Below are positions 36,001 to 39,000 of a stretch of 41,898 bases of DNA, in pieces. Origin of the DNA: an uncultured archaeon (GTDB lineage Archaea > Iainarchaeota > Iainarchaeia > Iainarchaeales > 1-14-0-10-31-34); the NCBI GenBank assembly GCA_964442255.1, contig CAYTYC010000012.1, forward strand, positions 1 through 41,898, given 5' to 3'. Within the stretch, counting starts at the first letter, position 1, and every line of letters starts with the position of its first letter. A program made the position numbers.

Positions 36001-39000
36001 ATGCCCCCCAGCTGCTGACACCCGAATCAAACCAGACATCCATTACCTCGGGAACCCTTTTCATTTCGCCTTTGCATTTCTTGCACGGAAACTTAACTTC
36101 ATCAATGTGCGGCTTATGCAAATCCAGTTCCTTGGGAAGCTTTGCGTGTTTCCCTAATTCTTTCAATGAGCCAATCACAACCTTTTCTTTGCATTCCCCG
36201 CAAACCCAAATCGGAAGGGGCGTGCCCCAGTACCTTGCCCTTGAAATCGGCCAGTCCCCTATTCCATGAATCCAGTTTTTCATTCTTTCCTTCATCCACC
36301 CCGGAACCCACTCAACTTTTTCATTCAATTCAAGCATTTTTTTCTGGATTCCTGACACGCGGAAAAACCATTGCGGGACGGCAATCATCAAAAGCGGAGT
36401 CTTGCATCTCCAGCACAAAGGATAATCATGCGTGAAAGGATGCCCGTACACCAGCAAACCTTTTCCCTTCAAGTCCTGCACAATCTCTTCATCCACTTCC
36501 CTTGCCCTTTTTCCCGCGTACTTTCCCGCCTCTTTTGTTAATTCCCCGTTCAATTGCACCGGGCTGATTGCAGGCAAACCCGCCTCTTTTCCCGCTTCAT
36601 AGTCCTCGCGCCCATGCCCCGGCGCCGTATGCACTAACCCTGTGCCTTCCTCCAAATTCACGTACCTGCTGTGCAAAATCACGCGGTAAGCGTTTTTCAG
36701 TTCAGGCAAATCCAAAAAACCTTCCAACGGGGCCTCATACTCCCAGCCATCCATTTCTTTTCCCCTGAATTCCTTTTTGGCTGTGTAGCCCGCTTCAACC
36801 GCATCCATTAAACCCTGCACCAAATCCTTTGCGATAACCCATTTTTCCCCGTTGCTTAACTCAATTTCACTGTACAAAAACTTCGGGTGAACCATTACCC
36901 CTGTGTTGCCGGGCAAAGTCCAGGGGGTGGTGGTCCAGACAATAAGGAAAGTGTTTTCCTTTCCCTTTACCTTGAATTTGACGTAAACTGCCCTGTCCGT
37001 TTGTTTGGCGTACTCTATTTCATTGTAGCTCACAGAGGTTGCGCACCTTGGGCAGACATGCACTGAATACTTGTCCAAATAAAGAAGCCCCTTTTCCTCC
37101 GCCTTCTTGAACGCAAACCAAATCGCTTCAATGTACTCGTTCCGTAAGGTAATGTACGGATTTTCCCAGTCCATCCACACCCCCAAATCATTGAATTCTT
37201 CGTTCATTTCGTCAATGTACCGGGTTGCGTAAGACCTGCATTTTTCAATGAACTTCCCGACACCGTAATCTTCAATGTCTTTTTTCCTTTTCACTCCAAT
37301 CTCTTTTTCTATCTGCACTTCAATTGGAGTTCCGTGCGTGTCATAACCCGGGCGGTCAAAAACGTGAAGGCTTTGCATCCTCTTTGAGCGCAAGGCAATG
37401 TCCTTCAAAATCTTGTTCAAGCCCGTGCCCATGTGAATGTGGCCTGTCGCGTAAGGCGGGCCGTCCATAAAATAAAAGCCTTTCCTGTTTTTTGCGCTCT
37501 TTGCCCTAACCTTTTCCGGAATCTTGTTTTTTTCCCAGAATTTTTTGATTTCCTCTTCCTTCTGCAGGGAATACTGTTCAAGGAGTTTTTTCATTTTTTC
37601 ACCAGTTCTTCAATTTTTTCCACGGAAACCTCTTTTAAGCTTTTTACAGCCAAATCCGCGCGAGAAAAATCGTGCTTGGAGGTGAACTCCGTTACAAGCC
37701 CAATGCACTTCATTCCCGCATTCTTTGCCGAATCAATTCCCGGGGAAGAATCTTCCACGGCAACCGCATTCCGGGCTTCAACCCCTAAAGCCTTTAAGCT
37801 CTTCAGATAAATTTCCGGGTTCGGTTTGATCTCTGCAACGTCGTCCCCGGAAAAAACCGAATCAAAAATTCCCTGAAATTTTCCGTGCTCCAAAACAGCG
37901 TCAACATTTTTTTTGTGCGAGTTTGTCGCCAGCCCAAGTTTCCAGCCCTTTTCCTTCGCTTCCTTTAACAGCTCCCTTGCGCCTTCGCTTACTTCCACTT
38001 CCTTCAAGTATTCGTAATGCAGTTCCCGCTTTTTTTTGCTTAACTCAACCACGTCCCCCTCAATTTTAAAGTCAGCCAAAGTTTTCTGGATTGCCTTAAA
38101 GGTTTTGCTTCCAACCAAATTCTGGTAATAATCCTGTGTAATCTCCGCCCCAAGCGGGGAAAACAATTCCTTCCATTCCCTGAACCCAAGCGCCTCTGTG
38201 TTAATCAGCACCCCGTCCATGTCAAAAACCAATGCATTCAATTAATTCACGCTCCAAAAATGGGGCCAGGAGGATTTGAACCCCCGACACATGGCGTATA
38301 AGACCATTGCTCTAACCAGGCTGAGCTATAGCCCCTTGCCGGCTGCTGCCGGCAGTGCAGGGTGCCATCTGCGATGGCACTTGCTCGCCCCAATGGGCTC
38401 GCACTGCCCCTTGCCCATTCCGTAGGGCAGGTCCGGTGTGCCGGCTGTTCCCGGCAGTGGAATCCCGCCTGCTCGCGGGAGCGGAGTGCGCCATGCTTTG
38501 CATGGCAGTTGTTCGGCTTTCGCCTCGCACTTGCCGCCTTCTTGCGGCAGCAGAGATGTCCTGTTTCCTCCGCTTTTGCTCCGGAGGCAGATCTGCTCGC
38601 TTCGCTTGCAGTTGCCCTGCAGTTAAACAGTGTATATTTACCTTTATATAATTCACTTAAAAGAGAATCAGAAAATCCTTTGTGGGCGTATTTGTCGATC
38701 CCTTCTCATGTTTAACACTCCAAGAAATGGGGTTAAAAGGGTTTTTAAAGGATAAGGGGAAGCTGAATTAATATGGCCAAAAAAAGGAATCCAAAACCGC
38801 TTTTATTCTCCGGCTCCAGAGCCAGTGAAAGGATGCAGCAGGTCAGAGACACCGCCAACGCCGCAAAAAAAGCCATTAAGGAATTGGATCCGAATGTTGA
38901 AGCGCCAATATTTGCTGCTTTGAATTTAAGGGCGGAGAAAGTGAAAAGCGTTGACCCAAAACACAGGAATCAAAGAAAAGTTTTGGCTGACATTCTTCAC

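What a model noticed while it worked through the whole genome (the two positions that open the first line are those of the whole stretch)
38261..38335. AUA is read by a tRNA-Ile with anticodon UAU and the agmatidine enzyme TiaS is missing, here and in all 196 genomes of t [...]
The genome has an intron-less tRNA-Ile(UAU) (minus strand, anticodon loop CTTATAC) beside tRNA-Ile(GAU) (C1:83182-83259), only two CAU tRNAs (initiator C3:60270-60362, one elongator C4:8057-8148) and no TiaS, although AUA makes up 27% of its isoleucine codons (5,798 codons, 15.5 per thousand). AUA is therefore decoded by U34 pairing, not by agmatidine-modified C34 as in nearly all archaea. The same holds for the whole order: no genome has a TiaS hit over the family cut-off.
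Evidence so far: ARAGORN and Rfam (65.4 bits) call the tRNA. Six-frame search with Pfam TiaS_FLD (PF08489): 0 matches here and 0 of 196 Iainarchaeales genomes over the cut-off (one hit of 19 bits below it), while the same search rings in 4 archaea among the 14 control genomes; no TiaS row in pfam.tsv. A strict pattern for an intron-less UAU anticodon arm joined to the T arm finds a copy in 34 of 196 genomes from 13 families (a 35th match, in G110, is the stub of a tRNA-Thr gene), 0 in the reversed-pattern control; G083 has the gene with an intron. Codon counts over 1,395 whole genes.
(Added by a program. Inside this text positions count along the whole contig: contig position 1 is position 1 of the stretch shown here. 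"Call 12" and the like, gene names such as g00115 and contig names such as C1 are that model's own, and its searches are not shown. The text may have been shortened before it was handed on; [...] marks where a part breaks off. The agent that wrote the report below was given it as the finding of a first reader that could run no searches.)

Follow-up and report, generated by a model that had tools for sequence, protein, structure and literature searches.

The report
AUA-reading tRNA-Ile(UAU) replacing the TiaS system
This small archaeon reads the isoleucine codon AUA with a tRNA whose anticodon is UAU and has no agmatidine enzyme TiaS, a real but already known way of decoding that turns out to be common among DPANN archaea.

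Summary
Window 38261-38335 (-) is an intron-less tRNA with anticodon UAU (ARAGORN; Rfam 65.4 bits). The genome (93.8% complete) has tRNA-Ile(GAU), only two CAU tRNAs (initiator, elongator Met) among 44 tRNA candidates, and no TiaS by three models. AUA is 26% of Ile codons and aligns with Ile, not Met, in 85 orthologues of a TiaS-bearing relative.

The order-wide claim also holds and its floor rises. TiaS is over the cut-off in 0 of 196 genomes. A UAU tRNA signature is in 178 of 196, not 34; the 18 misses are all under 90% complete. Compensatory changes occur in 15 of 21 stem pairs.

In the phylum, 213 of 215 genomes lack TiaS. The two that keep it carry a tRNA-Ile2(CAU) and no UAU signature. 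In another DPANN phylum 0 of 201 sampled genomes have TiaS and 116 have the UAU signature.

The same system is published for Nanoarchaeum, Korarchaeum and ARMAN archaea, so this is a new member of a known kind.

New details are a near-fixed C38 in this order, repeated linkage of the tRNA gene to ileS, and the TiaS-keeping sister lineages. The state of U34, and how AUG misreading is avoided, remain unknown.

The parts
38261..38335 (-). tRNA-Ile(UAU) gene, 75 nt, no intron, no encoded CCA. Anticodon at 38298-38300; loop is C32-U33-U34-A35-U36-A37-C38.
   Evidence: ARAGORN. Rfam RF00005 65.4 bits. Orthologues found in 178 of 196 genomes of the order. Cloverleaf covariation in the family.
38256..38260 (-). 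Run of five T directly after the discriminator base, a likely archaeal terminator or pause signal.
   Evidence: Sequence. Listed as the tail of a terminator-like site. Its function is inferred.
38336..38640 (-). GC-rich region of about 300 nt made of about ten short hairpins, between TATA-like boxes and the tRNA 5' end. Probably a long structured 5' leader.
   Evidence: RNA fold -146.4 kcal/mol, z = -5.9 against 100 shuffles. Its modules recur beside or inside other tRNA genes of the genome. The role as a leader is inferred.
38633..38651 (-). Two TATA-like boxes (TTATATAAA and TAAATATA), a candidate archaeal promoter for the tRNA transcript.
   Evidence: Read from the sequence. Relatives without the hairpin insert have a similar A/T box about 35-45 nt before the tRNA. 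Not tested.
37591..38241 (-). HAD-family hydrolase (beta-phosphoglucomutase-like), 216 aa. It starts 19 nt after the tRNA, and a GGAG lies 13 nt before its TTG start.
   Evidence: Pfam HAD_2 130.9 bits. NCBIfam TIGR02009 134.3 bits, below its cut-off of 153.35.
34742..37594 (-). ileS, isoleucyl-tRNA synthetase, 950 aa. Its start overlaps the end of the HAD gene. It is the enzyme expected to charge the UAU tRNA.
   Evidence: NCBIfam TIGR00392 862.8 bits against a cut-off of 621.4. Pfam tRNA-synt_1 and Anticodon_1. The order tRNA then ileS on one strand is seen in 15 of 62 loci that could be judged.

Best explanation
The gene encodes the only AUA-reading tRNA of this organism. It is a tRNA-Ile whose genomically encoded U34 pairs with the A of AUA. 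It replaces the usual archaeal pair of tRNA-Ile2(CAU) and TiaS, the enzyme that turns C34 into agmatidine.

Shown here:
- The tRNA is real and conserved, and its cloverleaf is under selection.
- Neither the CAU-type tRNA-Ile2 nor TiaS is found.
- AUA is common and stands for isoleucine.
- Related lineages that keep TiaS have a CAU-type tRNA-Ile2 and no UAU tRNA.

Inferred:
- The UAU tRNA arose from tRNA-Ile2(CAU) by a C34-to-U change, after which TiaS was dispensable and lost.
- It is charged by the IleRS encoded about 670 nt downstream on the same strand, with which it is probably co-transcribed.
- U34 carries an Elp3-dependent C5 modification, as seen in a haloarchaeal UAU mutant tRNA. My odds are about 0.5, against about 0.25 for a bare U as in Mycoplasma mobile, and the rest for pseudouridine or another modification.
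- The order-specific C38 helps tune the loop against AUG misreading. This is speculative.
For: The tRNA.

Family conservation:
- 3' pattern (anticodon loop plus T arm): 141 of 215 phylum genomes, all in the order, against 5 reversed-pattern hits.
- 5' pattern (D arm plus anticodon loop): 188 of 215, against 0 reversed hits.
- Union in the order: 178 of 196.
- Of 96 fetched loci of the order, 95 hold a complete tRNA-Ile(tat).

Structure, on 68 distinct intron-less genes:
- 98.7% of cells form a standard pair.
- 15 of 21 pairs show changes on both sides.
- 0 of 500 shuffles reach the observed values.
- Slid controls pair at 34-49%.

No third CAU tRNA among 44 candidates.

No TiaS:
- PF08489: 0 of 196 over the cut-off.
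- Full-length profile of the two class TiaS proteins: only zinc-ribbon hits of 18.8 bits or less.
- NF040849: strong full-length hits only in G213 (418 bits) and G212 (387.5 bits) among 215 genomes.
- The same searches ring in 4 control archaea.

Complementarity:
- The TiaS-bearing G212 and G213 have a GGGCC-type CAU tRNA and no UAU pattern.
- G212 has three CAU tRNAs: initiator, elongator Met and tRNA-Ile2.

Meaning of AUA: across 395 AUA codons in 85 orthologue pairs with G213, the partner residue is I 34%, V 21%, L 17%, M 4%. This matches AUU and AUC. For AUG the partner is M in 35%.

Origin: the UAU tRNAs are on average most like the two tRNA-Ile2(CAU) (identity 0.70 and 0.66), ahead of Ile(GAU) and elongator Met (both 0.62).

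Other:
- ileS linkage.
- Elp3 is present at 661.6 bits.
- No TilS is found; the only PP-loop enzymes are NcsA/TtuA-like and ThiI-like.
Against: - No RNA or chemistry data exist. Expression, charging with Ile and the state of U34 are untested, and no RNA run is on record.
- All genomes are metagenome bins. This one is 93.8% complete, so absence in any single genome is not proof.
- 18 of 196 genomes of the order show neither UAU pattern. All of them are under 90% complete.
- Descent from tRNA-Ile2(CAU) rests on identity differences of a few percent in a 75-nt molecule. For this genome's own copy the figures are 0.72 against 0.71 for Ile(GAU).
- Elp3 serves other tRNAs too, so its presence says nothing specific about this tRNA.
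- Co-transcription with ileS is inferred from spacing alone. A run of five T lies between the tRNA and the next gene.
Confidence: 0.88

Rival explanations
1. The canonical system is still present but was missed. A highly diverged TiaS and an intron-split or otherwise odd tRNA-Ile2(CAU) coexist with the UAU tRNA, which is then redundant. Some bacteria carry both TilS and a tRNA-Ile(UAU).
For: - Only 31 tRNAs are found by Rfam, and many tRNA genes here carry long introns, so tRNA detection is imperfect.
- The bins are incomplete.
- A passage in PMC3575796 reports bacteria that have both systems.
Against: - Three TiaS models find nothing in 196 genomes, yet find full-length TiaS (387-418 bits) in two relatives of the same class.
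- All 44 tRNA candidates were read, and the set is close to complete without a third CAU.
- The tRNA-Ile2(CAU) of the relatives is intron-less and easy to detect.
- TiaS and the UAU pattern are mutually exclusive across 215 genomes.
Confidence: 0.04
2. The UAU tRNA does not insert isoleucine. AUA is reassigned, for example to Met as in many mitochondria, or the tRNA is charged by another synthetase.
For: Nothing specific. The idea is possible in principle because charging was not measured.
Against: - AUA codons align with I/V/L just as AUU and AUC do, and with Met in only 4% of 395 cases.
- All 68 aligned genes have the A73 discriminator (invariant last column).
- The gene sits beside ileS in many genomes.
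Confidence: 0.02
3. The tRNA gene is foreign or an artefact: viral, bacterial, or on a mis-binned contig. It would then not be part of the host's own decoding.
For: tRNA(UAU) genes with the same D-arm pattern occur in many CPR and other bacteria, and on Streptomyces plasmids.
Against: - The contig carries the organism's ileS, and the tRNA-ileS arrangement is shared with 8 of 9 genomes of the same family that were compared.
- The gene is found in 178 of 196 genomes of the order, with lineage-specific compensatory changes.
- Contamination is 0.23%.
- Without this tRNA the 5,079 counted AUA codons would have no reader.
Confidence: 0.01

Closest known systems
tRNA-Ile(UAU) ('tRNA-Ile3') of Nanoarchaeum equitans and Korarchaeum cryptofilum
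   Same: Archaea that lack tRNA-Ile2(CAU), and by the literature also TiaS, and carry a tRNA-Ile with a genomic TAT anticodon. I read passages in PMC8450103, PMC6000648, PMC3895270 and PMC3575796.
   Different: - The Korarchaeum gene has an intron and was reported to resemble its own tRNA-Ile(GAU) (passage in PMC6000648).
- Here the gene is intron-less, has C38, resembles the tRNA-Ile2(CAU) of relatives slightly more, and is linked to ileS.
- Those reports concern single genomes. Here the state covers 213 of 215 genomes of a phylum.
ARMAN-2, -4 and -5 (Micrarchaeota and Parvarchaeota, DPANN)
   Same: They have tRNA-Ile(UAU) and lack both tRNA-Ile(CAU) and TiaS homologues. This was interpreted as replacement of the archaeal AUA strategy (passage in PMC3239211). 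They belong to the same superphylum as this window.
   Different: - The ARMAN-2 gene has a 25-nt intron at 37/38. That resembles the sister orders of this class but not this window.
- In the passages I read, no linkage to ileS and no TiaS-keeping relatives are described.
Mycoplasma mobile tRNA-Ile2(UAU) without TilS
   Same: A bacterial counterpart: loss of the C34-modifying enzyme and a genomic UAU anticodon (abstract and passages of PMC3575796).
   Different: - In M. mobile U34 was shown to be unmodified, IleRS gained an Arg that recognises UAU, and the ribosome itself rejects AUG.
- Its IleRS is of the bacterial type. Here it is the archaeal/eukaryotic type, and none of these points is tested.
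Canonical archaeal tRNA-Ile2(CAU) with TiaS (agmatidine)
   Same: The same task, reading AUA as Ile without reading AUG. The two TiaS-bearing relatives G212 and G213 use it.
   Different: The window's genome has neither the CAU tRNA nor the enzyme.
Eukaryotic tRNA-Ile(UAU) with pseudouridine at positions 34 and 36
   Same: A UAU anticodon reads AUA. PMC3239211 notes the likeness to eukaryotes.
   Different: By my recollection, not from a call, the yeast modification depends on the intron. This gene has no intron, so that route is unlikely here. It remains open for the intron-bearing genes of the sister orders.

Membership tests
TiaS/TilS-independent AUA decoding by tRNA-Ile(UAU) | A tRNA gene with a genomic TAT anticodon and a sound cloverleaf | tested here: met
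   ARAGORN and Rfam at 65.4 bits. In the family, 98.7% of stem cells pair and 15 of 21 pairs show compensatory change.
TiaS/TilS-independent AUA decoding by tRNA-Ile(UAU) | No tRNA-Ile2 with a CAU anticodon | tested here: met
   There are two CAU tRNAs among 44 candidates. One is the initiator (AGCGGG acceptor). The other is elongator Met (GCCGG acceptor), 76% identical to the elongator of G212 and 71% to its tRNA-Ile2. The genome is 93.8% complete.
TiaS/TilS-independent AUA decoding by tRNA-Ile(UAU) | No C34-modifying enzyme (TiaS or TilS) | tested here: met
   - PF08489: 0 hits in this genome and 0 of 196 in the order over the cut-off.
- Full-length profile and NF040849 are both negative.
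- The only TilS_N-like match is an NcsA/TtuA-like protein at 57.9 bits, below the cut-off of 93.6.
TiaS/TilS-independent AUA decoding by tRNA-Ile(UAU) | AUA is in use and means isoleucine | tested here: met
   AUA is 15.07 per thousand codons. It aligns with I/V/L as AUU and AUC do, and with Met in 4% of cases.
TiaS/TilS-independent AUA decoding by tRNA-Ile(UAU) | The tRNA is charged with Ile by IleRS and rejects AUG on the ribosome | not testable with these tools
   This needs aminoacylation and ribosome-binding assays. Only the ileS gene and its linkage to the tRNA are seen.
Canonical archaeal agmatidine system (tRNA-Ile2(CAU) with TiaS) | A TiaS protein with TCKD, FLD, OB and zinc-ribbon domains | tested here: not met
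   No hit in this genome. The positive controls G212 and G213 show all four domains.
Canonical archaeal agmatidine system (tRNA-Ile2(CAU) with TiaS) | A third CAU tRNA, distinct from the initiator and elongator Met | tested here: not met
Eukaryote-like tRNA-Ile(UAU) with pseudouridine at 34 and 36 | An intron at 37/38 that guides pseudouridine formation | tested here: not met
   This gene has no intron. In the order, 16 of 86 parsed genes have such an intron, as do 4 of 4 parsed genes of sister orders. That the intron is required in yeast is recalled, not taken from a call.

The most novel reading that the evidence does not exclude
In this order the tRNA-Ile(UAU) gene and ileS form a co-inherited, co-transcribed decoding module. 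The near-fixed C38 (C32/C38 loop), acquired together with frequent intron loss, is the adaptation that lets a UAU anticodon read AUA but not AUG. The single TiaS-bearing clade (G212 and G213) inside an otherwise TiaS-less DPANN radiation is either a relic of the switch or a re-acquisition. Either way it would give a natural before-and-after pair for studying how a codon's decoding system is exchanged.
Probability: 0.2. Interest if true: 0.55.

Novelty: new member of a known kind. Interest (0 to 1): 0.33.

Why it matters
AUA against AUG is the classic hard case of the genetic code. Bacteria solve it with lysidine and most studied archaea with agmatidine.

This work shows that in two large DPANN groups (213 of 215 genomes of this phylum, and 201 of 201 sampled genomes of another) the agmatidine enzyme is not found. 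A tRNA with anticodon UAU is the usual AUA reader there. The textbook 'archaeal' solution therefore does not describe a large part of archaeal diversity.

Annotation pipelines that expect a tRNA-Ile2(CAU) in archaea should not flag these genomes as incomplete.

The close neighbours with and without TiaS, the linkage to ileS and the fixed C38 give concrete handles for asking how a bare or modified U34 avoids reading AUG.

Tried and rejected
- Expression: the look-up of sequencing runs listed no RNA holder, only three DNA runs from microbial-mat metagenomes of one study.
- Rooting the switch: an IleRS tree of 10 rows finished only as the quick tree. G212 and G213 are sisters (SH-aLRT 100). Their position relative to this order, family f34 and four other DPANN genomes is unresolved (supports of 4 and 22), and the Thermoplasmata outgroup has a very long branch. 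I therefore cannot say whether TiaS is a relic or was regained.
- IleRS comparison: lengths are alike in TiaS-bearing and TiaS-lacking lineages, at 950-987 aa. No gross domain difference appears. I did not attempt a residue-level contrast, because two TiaS-bearing sequences are too few.
- AUA meaning from ileS alone: the gene holds only 3 AUA codons, so I replaced this test with the 85-orthologue test.
- ARAGORN with introns mislabels many intron-bearing tRNAs. For example, both CAU tRNAs were called Ser. I reread the anticodons by eye.
- The weak TiaS_FLD hits in the order, recurring in ORFs of about 190 aa in family f8, were rejected. The best one is ribosomal protein uL6.
- The 24.8-bit NF040849 hit in G076 covers only the OB-fold part of the model, in a 117-aa ORF. 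I judged it unspecific and did not scan it further.
- Papers PMC4615378 and PMC2840323 are not held. What they say about Nanoarchaeum and Korarchaeum is known to me only through papers that cite them. I opened no supplementary tables.
It shows presence in other lineages, not frequencies.
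Full report
THE OBJECT. ARAGORN finds two tRNA genes, one of them tRNA-Ile(tat) at 38261-38335 on the minus strand. Rfam's tRNA model matches it end to end at 65.4 bits. The gene is 75 nt long, has no intron and encodes no CCA. 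Its anticodon loop is CTTATAC, with the anticodon at 38298-38300. Five T follow the discriminator base.

THE REST OF THE DECODING SET. The genome has 1.277 Mb in 51 contigs and is 93.8% complete with 0.23% contamination. Rfam finds 31 tRNAs. ARAGORN with introns adds 13 more, but it often misnames intron-bearing genes. I read all 44 sequences. They give a nearly full archaeal set.
- tRNA-Ile(GAU) lies at C1:83185-83259.
- The initiator is at C3:60270-60362 (AGCGGG acceptor, three G-C pairs in the anticodon stem, intron at 37/38).
- A single elongator CAU tRNA is at C4:8057-8148 (GCCGG acceptor, 17-nt intron).
- After in-silico splicing this elongator is 76% identical to the GCCGG-type CAU tRNA of relative G212 and 71% to that genome's GGGCC-type CAU tRNA. 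It is therefore elongator Met.
- There is no third CAU tRNA.

NO TiaS.
- The Pfam FLD domain gives nothing in this genome at E<=10. It is over the cut-off in 0 of 196 genomes of the order.
- The best sub-threshold hit, 19 bits in G041, is ribosomal protein uL6.
Two clear TiaS genes appeared in other orders of the same class: G212 at 113.1 bits and G213 at 109.4 bits.
- These are ORFs of 464 and 467 aa with all four TiaS domains.
- A profile built from the two full-length proteins, run against the order, returned only zinc-ribbon matches of 18.8 bits or less, in 14 of 196 genomes.
- The full-length NCBIfam TiaS model finds 418 and 387.5 bits in G213 and G212. Its only other hit among 215 genomes is a 24.8-bit partial OB-fold match in G076.
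- No TilS is present either. The PP-loop enzymes are NcsA/TtuA-like and ThiI-like.

AUA IS USED AND MEANS ISOLEUCINE. In 960 non-overlapping ORFs of at least 150 aa, ATA makes up 5,079 of 337,021 codons. That is 15.07 per thousand and 26.1% of Ile codons. I fetched about 280 kb of the TiaS-bearing genome G213 and aligned 85 orthologue-like protein pairs with a mean identity of 45%.
- Across 395 AUA codons of this genome, the partner residue (not itself encoded by ATA) is I 34.2%, V 20.5%, L 17.0% and M 4.1%.
- This matches the pattern for AUU (I 34.5%) and AUC (I 40.6%). For AUG the partner is M in 35.3%.
- G213 itself uses AUA even more: 35.9 per thousand and 43% of Ile codons. The choice of decoding system is therefore not tied to how rare AUA is.

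THE tRNA FAMILY.
- A looser 3' pattern (anticodon loop plus T arm) matches 141 of 215 genomes of the phylum, all inside the order. The built-in reversed-pattern control gives 5 matches.
- A 5' pattern (D arm plus anticodon loop), which also catches intron-bearing genes, matches 188 of 215 with 0 control matches. Of these, 173 are among the 196 genomes of the order and 15 are among the 19 genomes of the other orders.
- Either pattern is present in 178 of 196 genomes of the order. The 18 genomes with neither are 60-89% complete.
- Among genomes at least 90% complete, the 5' pattern is in 56 of 58. The only two such genomes without it in the table, G046 and G163, have the 3' pattern.
- I fetched 96 loci of the order. 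Of these, 95 carry a complete tRNA-Ile(tat) and one is broken by a run of N.
- Of 86 genes my parser resolved, 16 have a canonical 37/38 intron of 20-186 nt.
- On 68 distinct intron-less genes the cloverleaf pairs in 98.7% of cells. Changes on both sides occur in 15 of 21 pairs. No shuffle out of 500 reaches the observed values, and slid controls pair at 34-49%.
- The seven loop positions, apart from position 38, are invariant, as is U31.
- Position 38 is C in 76 of the 86 parsed genes. It is A in the 4 parsed genes of sister orders, and, as I read the sequences printed, also in the 14 complete non-Iainarchaeales archaeal genes there.

WHO KEEPS THE OLD SYSTEM. TiaS and the UAU tRNA exclude each other across the phylum.
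- The only two TiaS-bearing genomes (G212, G213) are among the four non-order genomes without a UAU pattern. The other two, G206 and G209, are 80% and 78% complete.
- Both TiaS-bearing genomes have an intron-less GGGCC-type CAU tRNA. G212 also shows an initiator and an intron-bearing GCCGG-type elongator, which makes three CAU tRNAs as expected for the canonical system.
- I compared the 90 parsed UAU tRNAs with 63 other tRNAs of G000, G212 and G213, leaving out the anticodon columns. The most similar on average are these two tRNA-Ile2(CAU), at 0.70 and 0.66. Ile(GAU) and elongator Met both score 0.62.
- This suggests, weakly, descent from tRNA-Ile2 by a C34-to-U change.
- Sister-order UAU genes have 37/38 introns of 16-36 nt and A38.

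WIDER SCOPE.
ARAGORN called a tat anticodon 102 times across those 120 stretches.
- Among the 80 listed records are many CPR and other bacteria and 18 archaeal records. The archaeal records include Woese-, Pace-, Nano-, Aenigmat- and Undinarchaeota and one Thermoplasmata bin.
- Five of these archaeal genomes have no TiaS_FLD hit, 0 of 5, completeness unknown.
- In the phylum of the Woesearchaeota bin, 0 of 201 sampled genomes have a TiaS_FLD match. The UAU 5' pattern is in 116 of 201, with 1 control match.
- The TiaS-less, UAU-reading state is therefore common in DPANN archaea. Within this setting the TiaS-bearing G212/G213 pair is the exception.
- In an IleRS tree the two are sisters (SH-aLRT 100), but their position is unresolved. 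Whether TiaS is a relic or a regain stays open.

SURROUNDINGS. On the same strand, 19 nt after the tRNA, starts a HAD-family hydrolase (37591-38241). A GGAG lies 13 nt before its TTG start. Its end overlaps the start of ileS (34742-37594; TIGR00392 862.8 bits).
- The order 'tRNA-Ile(UAU) then ileS' on one strand recurs in 15 of 62 loci with at least 150 nt of downstream sequence.
- It recurs in 12 of the 30 loci of 3 kb.
- It recurs in 8 of the 9 genomes of this family that were compared, with gaps of roughly 10-125 nt where the two genes are adjacent.
- It is not seen in the TiaS-bearing genomes or the sister orders, where the tRNA and ileS lie on different contigs.
- In an Undinarchaeota bin, ileS is followed 14 nt later by a tRNA(UAU).
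- The linkage suggests co-expression of the synthetase and its odd substrate. This is an inference.
- Upstream of the tRNA there is no A/T box within 90 nt. Instead a 300-nt chain of GC hairpins (z = -5.9) separates it from two TATA-like boxes at 38633-38651.
- Relatives either have an A/T box about 35-45 nt upstream or carry similar hairpin inserts.

HOW IT PROBABLY WORKS. The tRNA is probably made from a long structured precursor and charged by the neighbouring IleRS. Its U34-A35-U36 then reads AUA.
- The open point is how AUG is avoided. Published cases differ.
- In M. mobile U34 is bare. There the IleRS and the ribosome supply the specificity (PMC3575796, abstract and passages).
- In haloarchaeal UAU mutants U34 becomes 5-cyanomethyl-U (PMC3895270, title, abstract and a passage).
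- This genome encodes Elp3 (661.6 bits) and an NcsA/TtuA-like thiolase. A C5-modified U34 is therefore my leading guess, at about 0.5.
- The intron-dependent pseudouridine route of yeast (recalled, not from a call) is unlikely for an intron-less gene.
- The order-specific C38 opposite C32 is a candidate tuning element. Nothing here tests it.

COMPARISON AND NOVELTY.
- The system is in print for N. equitans and K. cryptofilum (passages in PMC8450103, PMC6000648, PMC3895270, PMC3575796).
- For ARMAN-2, -4 and -5 the joint lack of tRNA-Ile(CAU) and TiaS is stated outright (PMC3239211).
- A full-text search for 'DPANN' together with 'agmatidine' found 0 papers. A search over DPANN, TiaS, agmatidine and Iainarchae- listed no paper combining a lineage term with TiaS or agmatidine among its top 20 of 89. 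The phylum-scale picture therefore seems not to be written up in the library searched.
- It is still a new member of a known kind, not a new mechanism.

VERDICT. Interest is modest.

Noticed in passing
window 38336-38640 (-); also G000 C12:23117-23143, C24:5008-5049, C1:106661-106693, C9:29959-30059, C47:118-344, C3:57120-57145, C28:12662-12687, C38:3754-3777: A family of short GC hairpins (stems such as TGCCGG/CCGGCA, loops of 3-8 nt) forms a 300-nt array in front of tRNA-Ile(UAU). Its pieces recur next to, or inside introns of, other tRNA genes. Of 50 such hairpins in the genome, 23 lie within 400 nt of a tRNA gene, a zone that covers 3.1% of the genome. Several relatives of the same family have similar inserts in the tRNA leader. 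Their function is unknown.
   Followed up: partly
G000 tRNA introns, e.g. C17:16954-17128, C15:27118-27290, C28:12689-12885, C1:84094-84336, C4:5340-5595, C1:106501-106660: Many tRNA genes of this genome carry long introns of up to about 260 nt. These share repeated modules: a hairpin followed by an A/T-rich box in several, and a second module shared by the Gln, Asn, Glu and Asp introns. They look like mobile intron elements.
   Followed up: no
L089, L090, L102, L109, L110, L112, L114 (genomes G001, G002, G071, G124, G134, G150, G160): In 7 of the 96 fetched loci of the order, the tRNA-Ile(UAU) T loop reads TCCRAAT. Position 55 is C instead of the almost universal U. I did not check whether other tRNAs of these genomes share this.
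   Followed up: no
L306 (G216, an Undinarchaeota bin): ileS is followed 14 nt later, on the same strand, by a tRNA(UAU) gene. This is the reverse order of the linkage seen in this order. It looks like an independent case of synthetase-tRNA linkage.
   Followed up: partly
L116 (G012:C60), L117 (G143:C65), L026 (G017:C19): Some genomes hold a second, diverged tRNA(UAU) copy. The G012 copy has a 42-nt intron and A38. The G143 copy is intron-less with A38 and a different anticodon stem. One of the two G017 copies has two mismatches in the acceptor stem.
   Followed up: no
L218 / G219 (a Thermoplasmata bin): A non-DPANN archaeal bin has an intron-less tRNA(UAU) with A38 and no TiaS_FLD hit; its completeness is unknown. 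Its IleRS is 1,169 aa long and sits on a very long branch.
   Followed up: no
Genome-contig loci L186-L265: The same D-arm-plus-UAU pattern is frequent in CPR/Patescibacteria, Planctomycetota and Chloroflexota bins and in Streptomyces, including one plasmid. It hints at widespread TilS-independent or redundant AUA decoding in bacteria.
   Followed up: no
window 3051-3974 (-): An ORF of 308 aa matches the AbiEii nucleotidyltransferase toxin of type IV toxin-antitoxin systems (108.3 bits). With 13 ATA codons it is the most AUA-rich ORF of the window.
   Followed up: no
window 34742-37594 (-): ileS holds only 3 AUA codons in 950, against the genome mean of 15 per thousand.
   Followed up: no
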